IMG/VR virus record: IMGVR_UViG_2534681940_000023
Coordinates: 1 to 9,206 of that record
Length of the DNA: 9,206 nt
Direction: 5' to 3' (one strand)
Source: a virus
Lineage: Duplodnaviria > Heunggongvirae > Uroviricota > Caudoviricetes
Shown here: piece by piece, positions 1,651 to 7,936 of the stretch
Layout: the number at the start of each line of letters is the position of its first letter
Numbering within the stretch: the stretch's first letter is position 1
Position numbers and translations under genes: made by a program
Notes under the pieces: generated by a model
Seen by the model: only the letters and a program-made list of their open reading frames with translations
Told to the model about the DNA's origin: nothing
Database searches by the model: none

Positions 1651-2300
1651 GCCGCCATCTCCCTTACCAGTTTTTCTGCCTGCTGGCGAACCTGCGCCAG
1701 AAAGGCCTCACCACATGCCTCAAGTTCATCGCGCCCGATGTAGCTGATTGCCGGTCCCTTCCAGGTCTTGTCGAAAACAGCAATAGCACCAGCGAAGAAA
1801 GCGCCTGTCGGCACCTGCTTCTCATCCTTCGGGATAAACCAGGCAGGCAGTTCAAAACCAATACGCCCGCGAATAAAAGCAATATGATCTGCATCTTCCG
1901 GCCACCACACTTCGCTGGTGGCAGCTTTGATCAGGAAAACATAGCGCCCGCCTTTATCACGCATGGCACTGGCATGCTTCATGATGTAACGCATGCCGGT
2001 GATGTATTGCCCCTCATGCTGACTGGCGCGGCTGTATGGGGGATTACCAAAGGCAGCACCTTTAAGCTCCGCAAGACGTTCTGACCAGTCATGCGCCAGC
2101 GCGTTGTCTTCCGCCGTGTAATACGCGGCACATTTGGCGTTATCACCGTCAGTGAACAGATCCAGAACAAACGGACCAAACAAGGTGTTAATTCCCCAGA
2201 AAATGTTGTCCGGCGTGCGCCACTGATCGCCCACTTCCTTCAGTTCATGGGCTGGTTTGTTCCGCAGTTCTACCAGCGCCTGGCAATATTTATTACTCAT
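1647..2300 (-). CDS. Phage-type DNA N6-adenine methyltransferase (217 aa)
   Basis: It has the DQWRTP motif near the N-terminus and the catalytic FGNPPYS (NPPY) motif, as in the phage Dam methyltransferase family (YfdM-like). The start ATG at 2300 overlaps the upstream stop as TAATG. The stop overlaps the next start as ATGA. Confidence 0.85.
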   Translation of the reverse strand: MSNKYCQALVELRNKPAHELKEVGDQWRTPDNIFWGINTLFGPFVLDLFTDGDNAKCAAYYTAEDNALAHDWSERLAELKGAAFGNPPYSRASQHEGQYITGMRYIMKHASAMRDKGGRYVFLIKAATSEVWWPEDADHIAFIRGRIGFELPAWFIPKDEKQVPTGAFFAGAIAVFDKTWKGPAISYIGRDELEACGEAFLAQVRQQAEKLVREMAA

Positions 2301-2392
2301 TAAGCCCCCACGTAAAAAGCATCCGCAATGTCTCCGGAAGTACAGCCCGGATGGGCTTCAATGAATTTCTGAACGTCATTTAACAGACTCAT
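2300..2392 (-). CDS. 30-aa ORF (MSLLNDVQKFIEAHPGCTSGDIADAFYVGA), possibly the N-terminal fragment of a winged-helix protein
   Basis: It is below the ORF-track size cutoff and I found it by reading the minus strand. The ATG at 2392-2390 follows GGGGGTGATC and lies 2 nt after the replication-gene stop. Its TAA overlaps the methylase ATG (TAATG). The peptide resembles the first helices of small wHTH proteins but stops after 30 residues. Confidence 0.3.
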   Translation of the reverse strand: MSLLNDVQKFIEAHPGCTSGDIADAFYVGA

Positions 2393-2394
2393 GA

Positions 2395-3375
2395 TCACCC
2401 CCTGAATCCTGCCGGGATCTGGCTGTAGTCCACGTTGTCGTAACTGGCTTTGAAGTACGGGTCTTCACGTTTTTCTATGTGCGTGCTGACGGACGGCGAT
2501 AAGCGCAGGGAAAGCTCATCCCATTTTTCCCGCAACTTCGACGGGCTGAGCACGTTACGGCACCAGAACGGATCGCGGCTGACGCGGCTGTACATCTCGC
2601 AGATTTGTTTGTGAGTACGACCATCCTGCACACACATCAGGCGAATTTCGTTTGCCCATGCTGTCCAGTTCGGTTCTTTGGGACGAACCACCTCGCCGTC
2701 ACATTCGGCGGCCTGCTCGTACAGGGCGATGATTTTTTTCCAGAGCCACTGTGCGCAGGTCAAATCATCCTGCGTTCCCCACTGGCGCTTTTTAGGGCTG
2801 AATACAACCGCATCAGGATGGCGAGTTAAAAACTCCTGTTCAGCCGTTTGCGTGTCCGGTTGCGAAGCGTCCGGACGAGAAGAGGTTTTATTCTCTGTAG
2901 TAATCTCTGTTGTATTCTCTGTAAGATCGAAATTGGTTTTCCCTTCTCCGCGGCGAGGGGTTTCCCGTGTCCGCTGTGAAGGCTTTCCCTCCTCCGCGAA
3001 ATTGGGTTTTACAGTTTCCCGAAAACGGGTTTCCCCATTTCGGGAAAACTGATTGTTTTCATTGATAAGTTCATTAAGGCGCTCACAATCTATACGGTAG
3101 AACATTTTGTGCTCAAGACGCTTGTTGGTTTCAACCAAAATGCCTCTGGACACAAGATGCTTACGCGCTACAGCCTGTTGTTCAAATGTAAGTCCGGTTT
3201 CGTGTTGTATCTCTTCACGCGTTTTATGTACGCCTTCCGCTGCATGTGCTTTATCCTGCCAGTAAAAAATCTGACCAAAGAAAATAACAGCGTGCGGACT
3301 TCCCATGTATTTAACGAGCCCAGGGTAATAAGCAACCGGATGCCCAAAATCGAGCAGAAGATCAGACGGACGCAT
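2395..3375 (-). CDS. Replication initiator / replisome organizer, lambda O-like (YfdO-like C-terminus), 326 aa
   Basis: Track ORF starts at GTG 3381. The ATG at 3375-3373 has a better SD (GGGAGGTGGCT ATG). It has an N-terminal wHTH-like region, a low-complexity middle encoded by DNA iterons, and a conserved C-terminal region (WGTQDDLTCAQWLWKKI...PFWCRNVLSPSKLREKWDEL). Its position after the cII-like and Rha genes is as expected for a lambdoid O gene. Confidence 0.8.
   Translation of the reverse strand: MRPSDLLLDFGHPVAYYPGLVKYMGSPHAVIFFGQIFYWQDKAHAAEGVHKTREEIQHETGLTFEQQAVARKHLVSRGILVETNKRLEHKMFYRIDCERLNELINENNQFSRNGETRFRETVKPNFAEEGKPSQRTRETPRRGEGKTNFDLTENTTEITTENKTSSRPDASQPDTQTAEQEFLTRHPDAVVFSPKKRQWGTQDDLTCAQWLWKKIIALYEQAAECDGEVVRPKEPNWTAWANEIRLMCVQDGRTHKQICEMYSRVSRDPFWCRNVLSPSKLREKWDELSLRLSPSVSTHIEKREDPYFKASYDNVDYSQIPAGFRG
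2929..3050. repeat. Iteron array, putative phage origin of replication inside the O-like gene
   Basis: TTTCCC-centred units lie at 2938, 2961, 2984 (exactly 23 bp apart), 3015 and 3030, plus an inverted GGGAAA at 3042. Examples are GGTTTTCCCTTCTCCGCG, GGGTTTCCCGTGTCCGC, GGCTTTCCCTCCTCCGCG and TTTCCCGAAAACGGGTTTCCCCATTTCGGGAAAAC. The array is flanked at 2885-2925 by an AT-rich TCTCTGT x3 stretch. This mirrors lambda ori, which has iterons plus an AT-rich region within O. Confidence 0.55.
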
Positions 3376-3595
3376 AGCCACCTCCCAGACGCTTAAACAT
3401 TTTCCCGGACTGAAAAGCCACCAGCGGATAACTCAGGGTATGAGTACGCCCCTGAACCTGACAGACAACCTTCTGGCTTTCTGTGTTGACCAGACAAACC
3501 CGCAGAACGTGACCGTTGCTGGTGGTGAACCACTGCCCCACACGGGGGCAGTGGTTGTATCGGTGATACAGAGAATTCACAACACGACGAATCAT
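3362..3595 (-). CDS. Small phage protein, 77 aa, possibly DUF4222/SH3-like
   Basis: ATG at 3595 follows GGAGGTG and forms an ATGA overlap with the upstream ORF. The 3' end overlaps the O-like start by 14 nt. Its WF..G..LRV...Q.VV...G pattern resembles the 57-aa ORF at 5092-5265. Confidence 0.6.
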   Translation of the reverse strand: MIRRVVNSLYHRYNHCPRVGQWFTTSNGHVLRVCLVNTESQKVVCQVQGRTHTLSYPLVAFQSGKMFKRLGGGYASV

Positions 3596-3786
3596 GGACG
3601 CACCTCCGCCGTTGTGATGTATTTAACCGGGCTGCCTTTCATTGCGATGATTTCACACATCTCCGCTGCTTTACGTTCCGCTGTTTTCCTGGATTTATAG
3701 CGGCGGTGCCAAACAGACGTATCCGTGCGAACTGATACATCGTTTCTGTATTCCGTAGTGGAGATGATGATTTCGTAACTAATCAT
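3592..3786 (-). CDS. Hypothetical small phage protein, 64 aa
   Basis: ATG at 3786 follows a strong SD (AAGGAGGT, about 6 nt spacing). ATGA overlaps occur with Rha upstream (3783-3786) and the 77-aa ORF downstream (3592-3595). I recognise no family. Confidence 0.6.
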
Positions 3787-4346
3787 GGGCGTACCTCCTT
3801 GTCAGAACCATTCAGCCTGGAATCAACAAGTGCAGCACCAAAAACAGCATCACCTACACGGTCGTACAGTTTGCCAGCCAGCGGAGATTCAACAGCCTTA
3901 AGCATGGGATAAAGCTGGCTTCTCCAGATTTGATGGATTTCACGCAAATGCAGGTATACGCCTCTGGCGTTTTGTGCGACAGATGACATCTCAGCCGCAC
4001 CAGCTCCTGATAAGCTCCTCTCCATCTGGTTAAAGGCATTGATGTATGCCTCTTTGAACCGGGCGGCACGCTTGCCAGTGAAGCCCATAGCAAGGAATGC
4101 GAAGCCGTCGCGGGTGATTTGATAGCAGGGAAGTTTGCGAGTACCGCCGTTGGGCTGGCGTACCAAAATTGATGTCTCCGCAAAATTGCGGGCACAAAAC
4201 TCTGGAGAACAATCCAAAATGCGGATCTTTTTCAGAACATCGTCATGACGTTTAGAGAAGAAGTCAGCAACAGCCAAAGAAGATGTAACAGCCTGACCAT
4301 CAACGATGGCAATTTCAGGTTGAGAGAGAGTTGGGAAAGTAGTCAT
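3783..4346 (-). CDS. Rha-family phage regulatory protein (187 aa from the internal ATG)
   Basis: [41 protein letters not shown]...[35 protein letters not shown] is a typical Rha (pRha) domain, and Rha proteins start about 20 aa before the V-TS--VA--F-K-H--VL motif. The ATG at 4346-4344 has only a weak GGGG SD. The frame stays open upstream to 5444, so the true start is unresolved. Confidence 0.75.
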
Positions 4347-4638
4347 GGTGACAGCCCCTATGTTGAATTCAAAGAACTCACCACATGGGACGCCAATCAC
4401 AGAGGTGGTGAGACGTACAGGGTTGGCGTAACCGGTCAACATAGAACCCGGCGCATCTTGCGATGCCCCTGCACGCCCCACCATAATTTGGACGTAGCAA
4501 TGCTCATGATACGAAAAGACCGCATGAGCGCGGTTATGCTCTATATTGAATTCCAGGACGCCAATCCCGACACCCGCTTTATAAGGTGCCTGAACAGTGT
4601 AACGTCCCGAAATTGAGGAATCAATGTTTTGATAAAAT
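4347..4638 (-). other. Coding-like segment in frame with Rha but lacking its own canonical start
   Basis: Translation (...[88 protein letters not shown]) shows a strong G-at-codon-position-1 bias typical of real coding sequence. There is no ATG or SD between the ProQ-like stop (4639) and this segment. In-frame GTG codons at 4712 and 4709 have no SD. Confidence 0.3.
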
Positions 4639-5031
4639 TCAGCGATTAGACGCTTCTTTTCTACCCATATTAACTTTGAACAAGAGCTCCATACGACGAG
4701 TCCAGACACCACGTTCTTTGAGTTGTGCTCTGGCTTCTTCGCGCTCAGATACGGAAGTTCTGACAATACGATTTCCAGCCAGATTGCGGCGATATTCTCC
4801 AAACGCGACTGACTGAAGGTATGCAGCGGAGCTTTTGTACTGATAGATGGCTCTTCGAAGGCTGTTTTTATATTCCTTAGGTATATGTCCGAGATCGGCA
4901 AAAAGCTCATGAACGATATCGTGAACAAGCGGAACAACTTTGTATGGAATAACAAAGAAGCTTTCTGGATAGCGTTCAGCCAATACTTTAATGATTTCTT
5001 TATTTGCAAGATGCCTTGCTTTTCTTCCCAT
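4639..5031 (-). CDS. ProQ/FinO-domain RNA-binding protein (130 aa)
   Basis: ATG at 5031 has SD GGAGAA about 8 nt upstream. By-eye alignment to the E. coli ProQ N-terminal FinO-like domain: SSKEVIAFLAERFPHCF / [17 protein letters not shown]; LRSALRLYTSSWRYL / [15 protein letters not shown]; GATRVDLDGN / [10 protein letters not shown]; ARKQLEE / ARAQLKE. The gene is visibly more AT-rich than its neighbours. Confidence 0.8.
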
Positions 5032-5061
5032 ATACCATTCTCCATTACTCCAGATATCAGA

Positions 5062-5089
5062 ATGATATATCCAGGTTCAAGCAGTTCAA
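5062..5089 (-). promoter_or_regulatory. Candidate internal sigma70 promoter ahead of the ProQ/FinO-like gene
   Basis: The minus strand reads GCTTGAACTGCTTGAACC (tandem TTGAAC). The first TTGAAC (5089-5084) is followed by a 16-nt spacer and TATCAT (5067-5062). This lies just after the stop of the 57-aa ORF and about 30 nt before the ProQ-like ATG. It is a motif match only. Confidence 0.3.
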
Positions 5090-5091
5090 GC

Positions 5092-5265
5092 TTATGCTGG
5101 TGCTTCGCACTCAACAAAATCACGACGAAACAACCACAGCGGGCTGAAGCATTCATGCGGATAACCATCACGCAGGTAAATAACCCGCTGTGTTTCCGGT
5201 TCCCAACGAATGACTCTGACGGGCACTCCGTAGTGATCTTTGAACCAGCGGTTAACTTGTTGCAA
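5092..5265 (-). CDS. 57-aa TTG-initiated small protein, DUF4222-like ([57 protein letters not shown])
   Basis: It is absent from the ORF track because it is under 60 aa. TTG at 5265-5263 lies 8 nt after GAAGGAGA (revcomp of 5273-5280), and the frame is closed by a TGA just upstream. TAA is at 5094-5092. The V-YLRDGY---C--P--F---F pattern matches my recollection of the DUF4222 small phage protein family. It is in the same frame as the ProQ-like gene. Confidence 0.5.
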
Positions 5266-5444
5266 AGGACTGTCTCCTTCTGCCGGTTGAAATCACCCAC
5301 AGCCCACTCTGCAAATCTGTGGGTTACAATTTCCCTGTCACCTGGTACATTCACTGCATAGCAATACTCCACCTTCGCTTTTCCACCCGGTACAGGAAGC
5401 GCAATCAGTTGCGAGCGACGGTAGTGTGTTGTTAAACTGTTCAT
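5266..5444 (-). CDS. Start-proximal part of an ORF ([57 protein letters not shown]...); 3' end unresolved
   Basis: ATG at 5444-5442 follows GGAGAA and overlaps the CII-like stop as ATGA, so initiation is well supported. The first 60 or so codons look coding. There is no in-frame stop until 3783, so the end given here is only where a better-supported gene in another frame begins. Confidence 0.4.
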
Positions 5445-6082
5445 GCGTTAGTTTCTCCACAACCAGAAGCAATCGACGCCACGACGCCCGGAGCTGCACA
5501 CTCGCGGGCGTTACTCTTTTCCGGCGCACAAAAAACACGAAATAACAGTGTTAAATGCTCCTTCCACTTCGCCATTACTTGGTAGCTGTTCTCTTCGATT
5601 TGCTCACGCTCAGCCTGGTCAATAACTCCATCAGCAGTTGCCTTGCGTAAGTACTGGGAATGCTTGCCAATCCATTCTATTGACTCCATCAGCCGCTGAT
5701 TAATGTCACCATTGTCAATGTCATCAATGACCACCAGCGGCACAAACACCCCATTACTACGACGGGCTATTGCATCCGTTACATGCCTGGTACCACTGGC
5801 ATCCTGTAAAACCATGGCCCACTCAAGTGGAAAAATTTGATCCCCACCGCTACGCAGTCTGTTATGCAATTGATCTTTTGCTGGGGTGATATCATCAGAT
5901 TTATACAAACCAAGAATTTCTGCTGCTTCCTCATAGCCATGAGGTAAATCAGCAATCGTTCTTCGTATTGCTGCCACCAGCCATGCTGGTTGCTTATCAA
6001 CTTTCCATTCAGGTTCTTTACCCACGTTTAAGCCCTCATATCTGTGGTTTCTGTAAATCGATTTATCCATTAGATTTTTCAT
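5441..6082 (-). CDS. CII-like lysogeny regulator (phage 186 CII/CP76- or YdaT-type), about 213 aa
   Basis: It has the layout of CP76/YdaT-type CII analogues: an HTH-like region ([12 protein letters not shown]...), then ...[23 protein letters not shown]... and ...[28 protein letters not shown]. It lies immediately downstream of cro and overlaps it. The start is uncertain: ATG 6082 (MKNLMDKS), ATG 6070, or the track's GTG 6139. None has a strong SD. Confidence 0.7.
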
Positions 6083-6263
6083 AAAGCTCAGGTTTAAATG
6101 GCAACCGTCCGCAAGTTCTATATGCAGCCTCTGCTGCACGTCCTTTTGGAATTAACTGGCCAGGACGGTTTCGCCACTGATAAACGGCTTCAGTTGTTAT
6201 GCCGAAAAAAGCAGCAACTTTCTCAATGCTGCCGAAGTAGCTTTCGATATCGTCAGTCGTCAT
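6063..6263 (-). CDS. Cro/YdaS-type HTH regulator (66 aa)
   Basis: ATG at 6263 follows SD GGAGGG (revcomp of 6267-6272). The HTH IEKVAAFFGITTEAVYQWRNRPGQLIPKGRAAEAAYRTCGRL resembles YdaS/Cro family proteins. It is divergent from the repressor gene. Confidence 0.85.
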   Translation of the reverse strand: MTTDDIESYFGSIEKVAAFFGITTEAVYQWRNRPGQLIPKGRAAEAAYRTCGRLPFKPELYEKSNG

Positions 6264-6360: not shown

Positions 6361-6987
6361 ATGGAAACGGTTGGTCAGCGTATAAAAGCTCTGAGAAGAG
6401 TTACCAGAACGTCCCAGAAAGAATTGGGTAAATTTTGTGGAGTAAGTGACGTTGCTGTGGGGTACTGGGAGAAAGACATCAATGTCCCTGGTGGGGAAGC
6501 ACTTTCAAAATTAGCGAAGTTCTTCAATACGTCAATAGATTACATTCTTTATGGTGCGGAGTTTGAAGGCAAACTCGTCACAAACATGCGCAGAGTTCCT
6601 GTAATCTCGTGGGTTCAGGCTGGGCAGTTTACTGAGTGCAGGACAGCAGAAGTGTTTAGTGAAGTAGACAAGTGGGTAGATACATCATTAAAGATTGGTG
6701 ATAACTCATTTGCATTGGAGGTTAAAGGCGACTCCATGACTAACCCTAACGGCCTCCCAACAATACCAGAAGGCGCAACAGTGATTGTAGATCCTGATGC
6801 AGAACCCCGGCATGGAAAAATAGTCATCGCTAGACTTGATGGAACAAACGAAGCCACAGTAAAAAAATTAGTTATCGATGGCCCTCAAAAGTTTTTAGTG
6901 CCATTAAATCCCCGGTACCCCAACATTCCGATCAATGGTAATTGCCTCATCATTGGTGTAGTCAAAGGAGTTCAATACGAACTCTAG
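6361..6987 (+). CDS. CI-type prophage repressor, XRE HTH plus S24 (LexA-like) autopeptidase domain (208 aa)
   Basis: N-terminal HTH is QKELGKFCGVSDVAVGYWEKD. A cleavage-site-like VQAGQF is present. The catalytic Ser lies in KGDSMTNP and the Lys in ATVKKLV. It is divergent from cro, and a terminator follows directly. Confidence 0.9.
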   Translation: METVGQRIKALRRVTRTSQKELGKFCGVSDVAVGYWEKDINVPGGEALSKLAKFFNTSIDYILYGAEFEGKLVTNMRRVPVISWVQAGQFTECRTAEVFSEVDKWVDTSLKIGDNSFALEVKGDSMTNPNGLPTIPEGATVIVDPDAEPRHGKIVIARLDGTNEATVKKLVIDGPQKFLVPLNPRYPNIPINGNCLIIGVVKGVQYEL

Positions 6988-7533: not shown

Positions 7534-7741
7534 CTCACGTACCTACCACCTCGCCTGATGTGGCTAAAAGCAGGCACATAACAGCTAAGTATTTTCAACC
7601 AGAGAGAATCCTTAGCGTTGTGGTGAATGCGGCTCAGCGCACGCGGGTTAAGGTTGAGACTGACAGTCGACCTTCTGTGGATACCCACCCGCCTGGTGTG
7701 CAACCTTCGCCAGGCACCGGGAGGCACCCGGCACCACAACA

Positions 7742-7799
7742 GCCACTGCTTTGGCGGTACCAGTTTGTACACTTGCTTCCGGCTGGTACCGCTCTTTTT
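7742..7799 (+). ncRNA. DicF-like sRNA candidate (5' end approximate)
   Basis: The core TTTGGCGGTACCAGTTTGTAC (7750-7770) closely matches my recollection of K-12 DicF, TTTGGCGGTATCAGTTTTAC. It has a similar architecture, with the GGCGG arm opening a hairpin that ends in a U-tract. Like dicF in Qin, it sits in the repressor-controlled operon opposite cro. The 5' part differs from K-12 DicF. Confidence 0.45.
7753..7799 (+). terminator. Intrinsic terminator (3' end of the DicF-like RNA) inside the early-left operon
   Basis: GGCGGTACCAG (7753-7763) pairs with CTGGTACCGCT (7783-7793). That is 10 Watson-Crick pairs plus one G-U, with a 19-nt loop, followed by C and TTTTT (7795-7799). Confidence 0.6.
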
Positions 7800-7893
7800 A
7801 CAAAACAGAGAAGAGCATCACCGGACGACGGGCTCATAACCCAATCCACCCGGGCGGCTGCCACCGCAGGTGCTCTTCTCTGTTTTGTGGAGA
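7795..7893 (+). other. Long RNA hairpin: 17-bp perfect inverted repeat, extendable to about 25 pairs
   Basis: CAAAACAGAGAAGAGCA (7801-7817) is the exact reverse complement of TGCTCTTCTCTGTTTTG (7871-7887). G-U and A-U pairs extend it outward to 7795/7893 and inward to 7819/7869. The roughly 50-nt apical region can form small CCGG/CCGG, GGG/CCC and GCGG/CCGC helices. Confidence 0.6.
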
Positions 7894-7936
7894 AACCAAC
7901 CGACCTTGCAGGGTCGATATGATGAGGAGCAGCAAA

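What the first reader, a model, noticed from the sequence alone, without database searches (positions are those of the whole stretch)
4639..5031. Prophage early operon encodes a ProQ/FinO-domain RNA-binding protein
The 130-aa ORF aligns by eye across the whole FinO-like domain of E. coli ProQ (LAER-P, LR-A---Y-SS--YL, G--R--L-GN, AR-QL-E). ProQ/FinO proteins are global or plasmid-dedicated RNA chaperones that recognise structured 3' ends and terminator hairpins; FinO-FinP and RocC-RocR are dedicated protein-RNA pairs.

Here the gene sits between the cII-like gene and the replication gene of a lambdoid prophage. It is visibly more AT-rich than its neighbours, has its own SD and a candidate promoter, and so has a moron-like look. 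The same prophage carries a hairpin-dense RNA locus with a DicF-like sRNA at 7534-7936.

A phage-dedicated ProQ/FinO protein paired with phage RNAs, or one that hijacks host ProQ or Hfq regulons, would be a largely uncharacterised regulatory module. The pairing with the 7534-7936 RNAs is my inference only.
Basis: partly seen in the sequence, partly recalled or inferred. Interest (0 to 1): 0.7.

Follow-up and report, generated by a model that had tools for sequence, protein, structure and literature searches.

The report
Phage FinO protein beside C4 RNA

Summary
The 130-aa ORF at 4639-5031 (minus strand) is a ProQ/FinO-domain protein. It scores Pfam PF04352 E 1e-13, the AlphaFold2 model has pLDDT 92, and every significant PDB fold match is a FinO domain. 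The residues matching the essential ProQ R58/Y70/R80 triad are present.

There is an IsrK-like sRNA (4589-4513) and a C4 antisense RNA (4488-4401, 80 bits). The C4 loops pair with the Shine-Dalgarno region of the next gene, a Rha-family antirepressor.

I obtained the genomic context of 14 lineages of this small subfamily (30-51% identity; Escherichia, Salmonella, Acinetobacter, Comamonas, Xenorhabdus, metagenomes). Eleven have a C4-type RNA on the same strand, 97-160 nt after the stop in ten of them. One more has the IsrK-like leader before its contig ends. The downstream gene varies among unrelated antirepressor families.

Best reading: a phage-private FinO-domain chaperone for the IsrK/C4 switch, analogous to FinO-FinP and FopA-Inc. 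This rests on gene neighbourhood only; RNA binding is untested. The gene is rare (14 of 5426 E. coli genomes), and more than 99% of C4 units lack it.

The parts
4639..5031 (-). Gene for a 130-aa protein made of a FinO domain plus one C-terminal helix (stop codon at 4641-4639)
   Evidence: ORF. Pfam PF04352 E 1e-13. AF2 pLDDT 92.2, pTM 0.83. The top 26 Foldseek PDB hits are all FinO domains. Annotated 'ProQ/FINO family protein' WP_038813125.1 in E. coli GB089.
5040..5043 (-). Shine-Dalgarno GGAG, 8 nt before the ATG at 5031
   Evidence: Read from the sequence.
5062..5089 (-). Candidate sigma-70 promoter TTGAAC-16-TATCAT in the 60-nt gap after DUF4222. Weak evidence.
   Evidence: Consensus scan, 9 of 12 matches. 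Such sites are not enriched over shuffles.
4596..4624 (-). Candidate promoter of the IsrK-like RNA, TTGATT-17-TACACT. It places the transcription start at about 4589.
   Evidence: Read from the sequence. It has 8 of 12 matches, below the scanner's threshold. The predicted start coincides with position 1 of the Rfam isrK match.
4513..4589 (-). IsrK-like sRNA carrying a1/b1-type decoy sites (UUGGCGU 4564-4558; UCAAUAUAGA 4549-4540) and an intrinsic terminator (4534-4519 plus a U tract)
   Evidence: Rfam RF01394, 54.1 bits against a gathering score of 50. Terminator scan. Complementarity read from the sequence.
4401..4488 (-). C4 antisense RNA: closing stem, two inner hairpins, 3' tail CACCUCU. 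Pairing segments are CUAUGUUGA (4444-4436) and ACGCCAA (4429-4423).
   Evidence: Rfam RF01695, 80.1 bits against a gathering score of 45, E 6e-15, full length. MFE fold -46 kcal/mol with the same architecture.
4355..4396 (-). a2/b2-type target sites of C4 in the rha leader: UUGGCGU (4396-4390) and UCAACAUAGGGG (4366-4355). The second covers the SD AGGGG (4359-4355).
   Evidence: Complementarity read from the sequence.
3783..4346 (-). Rha-family regulator (putative antirepressor), 187 aa counted from ATG 4346. This is the gene the C4 switch controls.
   Evidence: Pfam Phage_pRha E 4e-27. TIGR02681. PHROG transcriptional regulator and anti-repressor families.

Best explanation
The ORF encodes a minimal FinO-domain RNA-binding protein. 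I propose it is the private protein partner of the riboregulatory switch that starts 50 nt after its stop codon.

The switch is of the P1 immI / Gifsy-1 isrK type. A C4 antisense RNA pairs through two exposed segments with sites over the ribosome-binding site of a Rha-family antirepressor gene. An upstream IsrK-like RNA carries decoy copies of the same sites.

Proposed mechanism, all inferred. The FinO domain grips a helix followed by a short single-stranded 3' tail. That could be the C4 closing stem with its CCACC-type tail, the IsrK terminator hairpin with its U tail, or both. Binding would protect the RNA from 3' decay and speed its pairing. By analogy with FinO-FinP/traJ and FopA-Inc/repZ, I favour the version in which it strengthens C4 repression of the antirepressor and so stabilises lysogeny. 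I put that at about 60:40 over the opposite version, in which it helps IsrK to switch the antirepressor on.

What is shown: the fold, the RNA genes, the pairing sites and the conserved neighbourhood. What is inferred: RNA binding, the ligand and the direction of the effect.
For: 1. FinO domain. Pfam E 1e-13. AF2 pLDDT 92. The top 26 Foldseek PDB matches are all FinO domains: RocC, Lpp1663, NMB1681 and FinO, with E down to 1e-5. In the phmmer alignment the window's K55, R59, Y71 and R81 correspond to ProQ K54, R58, Y70 and R80. R58, Y70 and R80 are essential for binding of all RNAs tested in E. coli ProQ (PMC10578477).

2. RNA switch next door. C4 scores 80.1 bits and isrK 54.1 bits, both above Rfam gathering scores. 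The C4 segment CUAUGUUGA pairs with UCAACAUAG at the SD of rha, and ACGCCAA pairs with UUGGCGU. Both motifs recur inside the IsrK-like RNA.

3. Conserved linkage.
- All close relatives carry isrK and C4 directly downstream of the gene.
- Context was obtained for 14 lineages at 30-51% identity. Eleven have a C4-type RNA (RF01695 or RF02221) at or above gathering score on the same strand. It starts 97-160 nt after the stop in ten and 546 nt after it in Acinetobacter.
- One more lineage has isrK/a1b1 matches just before its contig ends.
- The gene after the RNA varies: Rha (3 lineages), Bro-N, ORF6N, AntA, two PHROG Ant families and PF25738 'Derepression'. The RNA is therefore the constant neighbour.
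- In L018, L019 and L020-22 the upstream gene is divergent, so the gene heads its own transcription unit.
- No C4-type match lies upstream of the gene or on the opposite strand in any of these loci.

4. The whole block is missing from a sister prophage with 99%-identical flanks.

5. Precedent. Host ProQ associates with IsrK, IsrJ and other prophage sRNAs in Salmonella (PMC5391140). FinO domains recognise a hairpin followed by a 3' tail (PMC9674577). FinO and FopA are dedicated to antisense RNAs on their own element (PMC9977716).
Against: - There are no binding or expression data. The link rests on gene neighbourhood alone.
- The isrK-C4 unit occurs at 3914 places in 2291 of 5426 E. coli genomes, while the gene is in 14. 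No record of the phage collection encodes a relative. C4 switches therefore work without it.
- Two lineages, L024 and Xenorhabdus L032, carry the gene without a detectable C4-type RNA.
- The position matching ProQ R80 is K or Y in many subfamily members, although R80K abolishes binding in ProQ.
- Linkage could partly reflect common descent of a mobile cassette.
- Rfam labels IsrK an Hfq-binding RNA.
Confidence: 0.58

Rival explanations
1. General moron. The protein is an RNA chaperone that taps into or competes with host ProQ/Hfq ligands (sRNAs, 3' UTRs) for lysogenic conversion or host takeover. On this view it sits next to C4 only because that site is a hot spot for cassette insertion.
For: - Lower G+C than its flanks, its own SD and a promoter-like site.
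- Patchy distribution: 14 of 5426 E. coli genomes.
- FinO domains bind generic terminator hairpins.
- Two lineages lack C4.
- Uncharacterised FinO-fold proteins also occur in virulent phages.
Against: A hot spot does not explain same-strand adjacency at 97-160 nt in ten lineages from three bacterial orders while the downstream protein gene is exchanged. It also does not explain loss of the whole block together.
Confidence: 0.2
2. One reading: the protein works with the structured RNAs at 7534-7936 of the same prophage.
For: Both lie in one prophage. The 7534-7936 stretch is G+C-rich and non-coding, with a sub-threshold STnc100 match.
Against: - The locus is in 2809 of 5426 E. coli genomes against 14 for the gene.
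- There is no BLAST match to it in any other locus that carries the gene.
- It is present in the sister prophage that lacks the gene.
- There is no DicF match.
Confidence: 0.03
3. The protein has no RNA role in the switch. It could be a decaying passenger gene, or a protein that keeps the FinO fold but has another function such as DNA or protein binding.
For: The R80-equivalent position varies in the subfamily. The gene is dispensable for most C4 modules. PGAP leaves it unannotated in several genomes.
Against: The ORF is intact, with conserved length (124-131 aa), across 30-51% divergence. Y71 is invariant, and G86, R101 and W110 are nearly invariant. The fold is predicted with high confidence. 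These features indicate purifying selection on a FinO domain.
Confidence: 0.1

Closest known systems
FinO with FinP antisense RNA and traJ (F-like plasmids); FopA with Inc antisense RNA and repZ (pCol1B9)
   Same: A FinO-domain protein is encoded on a mobile element next to that element's own antisense RNA, which blocks translation of a regulator. The protein stabilises the RNA and promotes pairing (PMC9977716; PMC7491321). The window has the same layout: protein gene, antisense RNA, target RBS.
   Different: - The element is a phage, not a plasmid.
- The target is an antirepressor, not a transfer or replication gene.
- The RNA is of the processed C4 type, with a decoy RNA (IsrK).
- The protein is below the NCBIfam FinO cut-off (18.4 against 136 bits).
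- tblastn against 72,556 plasmids finds no FinO or FopA gene at E<=1e-3.
- Binding is untested.
RocC with RocR (Legionella pneumophila)
   Same: RocC gives the best structural matches to the model (7rgt and 7rgu, E 1e-5, TM 0.65-0.8). It is a dedicated protein-sRNA pair that recognises a hairpin followed by a pyrimidine 3' tail.
   Different: RocC is chromosomal, controls competence, and has a long C-terminal extension. Sequence identity is 22-25%.
ProQ (enterobacterial global RNA chaperone)
   Same: ProQ is the closest solved sequence relative (5nb9, E 9e-6). The K54/R58/Y70/R80 equivalents are conserved. Host ProQ associates with IsrK and other prophage sRNAs in Salmonella.
   Different: There is no linker or Tudor-like C-terminal domain, only one extra helix (112-128) after a subfamily-specific G-x-W-T/S motif. 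The score is far below the ProQ equivalog cut-off (41.7 against 127 bits).
P1/P7 immI operon (c4-icd-ant) and the Gifsy-1 isrK-orf45-anrP locus
   Same: The RNA part of the window is a member of this kind. It has a C4 RNA, upstream a1/b1-type sites inside an IsrK-like RNA, downstream sites over an RBS, and then an antirepressor-type gene.
   Different: In what I read and recall, neither P1/P7 nor Gifsy-1 is described with a protein gene of this kind ahead of the RNA. No record of the phage collection encodes a relative. No separate icd/orf45 ORF is seen here: the ATG inside the C4 5' arm (4483) is in frame with rha.

Membership tests
ProQ/FinO domain family (Pfam PF04352) | Profile-HMM match above the curated threshold over most of the domain | tested here: met
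   E 1e-13, 51.7 bits against a cut-off of 27, profile positions 4-99 of 109. 18 of 19 subfamily members also match.
ProQ/FinO domain family (Pfam PF04352) | FinO-domain fold | tested here: met
   AF2 pLDDT 92.2, pTM 0.83. The top 26 Foldseek PDB hits are exclusively RocC, Lpp1663, NMB1681 and FinO. The next hit has E 2.9.
ProQ/FinO domain family (Pfam PF04352) | Conserved RNA-contact residues of the concave face (ProQ R58, Y70, R80; RocC R75, Y87, R97) | tested here: met
   The window has R59, Y71 and R81 at the aligned positions (roles). Across the subfamily Y71 is invariant, but the R80-equivalent is R, K or Y, so this is inconclusive for the subfamily as a whole.
ProQ/FinO domain family (Pfam PF04352) | Binds structured RNA (hairpin with 3' tail) | not testable with these tools
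   Needs EMSA or CLIP.
ProQ proper (global chaperone, NCBIfam NF003434 equivalog) | Equivalog-level score, and a linker plus C-terminal Tudor-like domain | tested here: not met
   41.7 bits against a cut-off of 127. The protein is 130 aa with a single helix after the FinO domain.
FinO proper (NCBIfam NF010317) | Subfamily-level score | tested here: not met
   18.4 bits against a cut-off of 136. There is no tblastn hit to FinO or FopA genes among 72,556 plasmids.
Dedicated FinO-domain protein / antisense RNA pairs (FinO-FinP, FopA-Inc, RocC-RocR) | Protein gene linked to a specific regulatory RNA on the same element, conserved across relatives | tested here: met
   A C4-type RNA at or above gathering score lies on the same strand downstream in 11 of 14 lineages, and a leader-only match in one more.
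Dedicated FinO-domain protein / antisense RNA pairs (FinO-FinP, FopA-Inc, RocC-RocR) | The protein binds, stabilises and promotes pairing of that RNA | not testable with these tools
   Inferred only.
C4 antisense RNA / immI-type switch (Rfam RF01695, clan CL00128) | Covariance-model match above the gathering score | tested here: met
   80.1 bits against 45, full length 1-87.
C4 antisense RNA / immI-type switch (Rfam RF01695, clan CL00128) | Two exposed segments complementary to sites over the RBS of the downstream gene, with a second copy of the sites upstream | tested here: met
   Read from the sequence: 4444-4436 pairs with 4366-4358, and 4429-4423 pairs with 4396-4390. Upstream copies are at 4549-4540 and 4564-4558. 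My crude cognate versus non-cognate statistic did not discriminate. The c4-a1b1 model itself is below threshold in the window (20.4 against 46.7) but at threshold in L012 and L005.
   No DicF match at E<=1 anywhere in the window. Only STnc100 at 36.3 bits against 47.

The most novel reading that the evidence does not exclude
A small FinO-domain subfamily (124-131 aa, with a G-x-W-T/S motif and a C-terminal helix) is a dedicated third component of C4-type immunity switches in temperate phages of several proteobacterial orders. It would recognise a processed, tRNA-acceptor-like RNA (C4: closing stem plus CCACC-type 3' tail) rather than an intrinsic terminator. That would give the phage a chaperone independent of host ProQ, and would give the 35-year-old C4 antisense system a protein cofactor that is not described in what I read or recall.
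Probability: 0.3. Interest if true: 0.75.

Novelty: new variant of a known kind. Interest (0 to 1): 0.6.

Why it matters
Dedicated FinO-domain protein/antisense-RNA pairs are known from plasmids (FinO, FopA) and from one chromosomal system (RocC). In the library I searched, phage-encoded FinO-domain proteins are listed in databases but none has a function.

C4-type antisense RNAs are very common: 42% of complete E. coli genomes carry the isrK-C4 unit. They control antirepressors, and so prophage induction and cross-talk between prophages. As far as I know, no dedicated protein cofactor has been described for them.

A conserved FinO-C4 module names a specific RNA ligand for a small, well-predicted protein. 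That makes several questions directly testable: how FinO domains choose their RNAs, whether they can read processed 3' ends, and how phages tune antirepressor switches.

There is also a practical point. Annotation pipelines translate the RNA region as 'ash family' or as over-long 'Rha family' proteins, and they sometimes drop the FinO gene.

Tried and rejected
- **Word-indexed protein search.** It found almost nothing beyond a 97% relative. The exhaustive HMMER search was needed to see the subfamily.
- **tblastn of the protein.** No match in 50,697 phage records, and only a ProQ gene in the plasmid collection.
- **The search for related loci.** Single-protein scans with P0002, P0006, P0010 and P0064 found no viral contigs. 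The metagenome scan gave one short contig.
- **RNAduplex of whole C4 against its flanks.** It simply unfolds C4 and is uninformative.
- **Cognate versus non-cognate pairing statistic.** A longest-complementary-run measure that allows G-U did not discriminate: mean 8.5 against 7.5. The loop-SD pairing therefore rests on direct reading and on homology to P1.
- **Joint alignment of C4-type and Xcc1-type RNAs.** MAFFT/RNAalifold gave no usable consensus structure.
- **An overlapping gene in the +1 frame of the ORF.** The 554-codon open frame is not conserved in divergent homologues, so I rejected it.
- **DicF identity for 7534-7936.** Rejected.
- **DUF4222 as part of the module.** Rejected. It is retained in the sister prophage that lacks the module, and it lies 4 kb away in L012.

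Full report
**1. The observation**

The ORF is at 4639..5031 on the minus strand: ATG start, 130 aa. It matches Pfam PF04352 (ProQ/FinO) at E 1e-13 and 51.7 bits against a cut-off of 27. The match covers residues 10-107 and profile positions 4-99 of 109.

By sequence its nearest solved relatives are the N-terminal domain of E. coli ProQ (5nb9, E 9.3e-6), Legionella Lpp1663 and RocC.

An AlphaFold2 model built on a 19-sequence alignment has mean pLDDT 92.2 and pTM 0.83. Foldseek against the PDB returns only FinO-domain structures among its 26 best hits: RocC, Lpp1663, NMB1681 and FinO, with E down to 1e-5 and TM 0.65-0.8. The next hit has E 2.9.

In the phmmer alignment, ProQ K54, R58, Y70 and R80 correspond to K55, R59, Y71 and R81 of this protein. 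R58, Y70 and R80 are essential for binding of all RNAs tested in ProQ (PMC10578477). The equivalent RocC residues form the N-cap and the 3'-nucleotide pocket (PMC9674577).

The protein is not an orthologue of ProQ or FinO. NCBIfam scores are 41.7 against 127 bits and 18.4 against 136 bits. After the FinO domain it has only one further helix, residues 112-128.

The context claims hold.
- A Cro-like gene (6063-6263) and a CII-like gene (5441-6139) lie upstream.
- An O-like replication gene (2395-3381) lies downstream.
- An S24-type CI repressor is encoded divergently at 6361-6987.
- G+C is 0.40-0.45 over the gene against about 0.50 in the flanks.
- An SD and a promoter-like site are present. Promoter-like sites are no more frequent than in shuffles.

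The 'DicF-like' label for 7534-7936 is not supported. Rfam gives no DicF match, only a sub-threshold STnc100 match.

**2.

On the same strand, Rfam finds two RNA genes above their gathering scores.
- An IsrK-like sRNA at 4589..4513 (54.1 bits; gathering score 50).
- A full-length C4 antisense RNA at 4488..4401 (80.1 bits; gathering score 45; E 6e-15).

The IsrK-like RNA starts 50 nt after the stop codon. It ends in an intrinsic terminator at 4534-4519 followed by a U tract. A promoter-like TTGATT-17-TACACT (4624-4596) would start transcription at its first base (reading).

The C4 RNA folds into a 17-bp closing stem, two inner hairpins and a single-stranded 3' tail. Its hairpin-2 loop, CUAUGUUGA, is complementary to UCAACAUAG at 4366-4358. 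That site runs into the SD AGGGG of the next gene, whose ATG is at 4346. Its unpaired ACGCCAA is complementary to UUGGCGU at 4396-4390. Copies of both target motifs lie inside the IsrK-like RNA.

The next gene encodes a Rha-family regulator with PHROG matches to anti-repressor families.

This is the layout of the P1/P7 immI operon, where trans-acting c4 RNA represses synthesis of the Ant antirepressor (PMC8546580; APSE phages, PMC7313666). It is also the layout of the Gifsy-1 isrK-orf45-anrP locus, where short IsrK switches on translation of the read-through transcript (PMC4825925).

**3. Is the neighbourhood meaningful?**

The gene is rare. It is in 14 of 5426 complete E. coli genomes, all at 97.5% nucleotide identity. 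It is in three IMG/VR contigs and in no record of a 50,697-genome phage collection by tblastn. All close relatives have isrK and C4 directly downstream, in one to three tandem units, on different lambdoid backbones.

An exhaustive HMMER search of 1.84 billion representatives found 57 proteins at E<=1e-3. About twenty of them form a subfamily of 124-131 aa with a shared G-x-W-T/S motif.

I could fetch genomic context for 14 lineages at 30-51% identity. They come from Salmonella enterica, Acinetobacter ursingii, Comamonas aquatica, Xenorhabdus lircayensis and metagenomes. Rfam scans gave the following.
- Eleven lineages have a C4-type RNA at or above gathering score: RF01695 C4 in seven and RF02221 sRNA-Xcc1 in four. 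It is on the same strand in every case.
- It begins 97-160 nt after the stop in ten lineages and 546 nt after it in Acinetobacter.
- A twelfth lineage (L023) shows the isrK/a1b1 leader just before its contig ends.
- Two lineages (L024 and Xenorhabdus L032) have none.
- No C4-type match lies upstream of the gene or on the opposite strand in any locus.

The Xcc1-type RNAs share the C4 architecture: a 5' AUGG, a closing stem, two hairpins and a CCACC-type tail. In most of them (not L026 or L029) the longest complementary stretch lies on or just before the SD of the next gene.

The protein gene that follows the RNA changes from lineage to lineage. It is Rha in three, and otherwise Bro-N, ORF6N, AntA, two PHROG Ant families, PF25738 'Derepression', or a 56-aa unknown. 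The constant neighbour of the FinO-like gene is therefore the RNA, not a particular protein.

In three lineages the upstream gene is divergent, so the FinO-like gene heads its own transcription unit.

An E. coli prophage with 99%-identical flanks lacks the FinO gene, both RNAs and rha together. One mosaic joint lies inside the DUF4222 gene.

The dependence runs one way. The isrK-C4 unit is at 3914 places in 2291 E. coli genomes, so fewer than 1% of units have this gene.

**4.

The stretch 7534-7936 occurs in 2809 of 5426 E. coli genomes. It has no BLAST match in any other locus carrying the gene. It is present in the sister prophage that lacks the gene.

**5. Mechanism**

Shown: a FinO-domain protein gene; an adjacent IsrK/C4 switch whose pairing sites cover the rha SD; and conserved linkage.

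From established knowledge:
- FinO domains bind a helix followed by a single-stranded 3' tail and bury the 3' end.
- FinO and FopA stabilise their element's antisense RNA and promote pairing with the target mRNA.
- Host ProQ associates with IsrK and other prophage sRNAs in Salmonella.
- Some processed phage sRNAs without terminators are ProQ ligands.

Inferred: the protein binds C4 (closing stem plus tail), the IsrK terminator, or both. It would protect the RNA and accelerate pairing. I favour reinforcement of C4 repression of the antirepressor, about 60:40 over help to IsrK-mediated activation. Overall confidence that it is a functional partner of this switch is 0.58.

Counter-evidence:
- Most C4 units lack the gene.
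- Two lineages lack C4.
- The R80-equivalent position is variable in the subfamily.
- Part of the linkage could be inheritance of a cassette.

**6. Comparison and novelty**

The protein is a member of the ProQ/FinO domain family, and NCBI already annotates it so in some genomes. It is not ProQ or FinO, and tblastn against the plasmid collection finds no FinO or FopA relative. The RNAs are members of known Rfam families.

What appears new is the conserved coupling of a small FinO-domain subfamily to C4-type switches. Full-text searches for C4 antisense RNA with ProQ, for IsrK with ProQ, for FinO with antirepressor, and for FinO-domain with temperate phage returned nothing describing it. That library lacks most subscription journals.

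FinO-fold proteins exist in several virulent phages but are uncharacterised. The matching PHROG family has no assigned function.

I therefore rate it a new variant of a known kind, with interest 0.6. It is a concrete, testable protein-RNA pair, supported so far only by comparative genomics.

Noticed in passing
window 4317-4601 (minus strand); L006 3340-4008; L007 2980-4032: Pfam PF10554 'Ash protein family' (PGAP 'ash family protein') matches the translation of the isrK-C4 RNA region. PGAP 'Rha family' CDSs are extended across the RNAs, and in several genomes the FinO gene is then left unannotated. Either this protein family is largely a translated RNA locus, or the region is dual-coding. Gifsy-1 orf45 is translated, and the conserved AUGG of the C4 5' arm (ATG 4483) is in frame with rha here.
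   Followed up: partly
window 3785-5447 (minus strand): A 554-codon stop-free frame runs through rha, both RNA genes and the +1 frame of the FinO gene (0 stops in 131 codons) and of DUF4222 (0 stops in 58 codons). Other genes in the window have 4-12 stops in their +1 frame. The frame is kept in the 97%-identical relatives but not in divergent homologues. It remains unexplained.
   Followed up: partly
window 7534-7936 (plus strand): A G+C-rich (0.55-0.57) non-coding stretch with a sub-threshold STnc100 match at 7599-7801 (36.3 bits against 47). It is present in 52% of complete E. coli genomes and unannotated there. It may be a structured RNA in its own right, unrelated to the FinO gene.
   Followed up: partly
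L005 5443-6000; L007 2744-3951; L015 4502-5143: The isrK-C4 unit is tandemly repeated, twice in L005 and three times in L007. In a Salmonella prophage, two sRNA-Xcc1-type units each precede an ORF6N gene.
   Followed up: no
L015, L025, L026, L029 (sRNA-Xcc1 hits): RF02221 sRNA-Xcc1 matches share the C4 architecture (5' AUGG, closing stem, two hairpins, CCACC-type 3' tail). In L015 and L025 a loop segment is complementary to the SD of the next antirepressor gene. Rfam nevertheless does not place the family in the C4 clan.
   Followed up: partly
L033 (E. coli Z1323CEC0001) compared with window 2300-5190: A CPS-53-like sister prophage (yfdN to yfdR) is about 99% identical on both sides. It replaces the O-like gene, two small ORFs, rha, both RNAs and the FinO gene with a different O-like gene plus PerC/yfdN. 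One mosaic joint lies inside DUF4222, at about window 5140-5190.
   Followed up: partly
L018 1-3866; L032 3055-3661; L021 5297-5929: Some homologues sit beside defence-type or toxin-antitoxin-type genes: AAA_15 with GmrSD_N in L018, an apparent HigB/HigA-like pair (judged by eye from the ORF translations, not searched) in Xenorhabdus L032, and HicAB in L021.
   Followed up: no
alignment A1, window residues 81-82 and 108-111: The subfamily has a nearly invariant W110 in a G-x-W-T/S motif before the extra C-terminal helix. Arginine alternates between the positions equivalent to ProQ R80 and V81.
   Followed up: no
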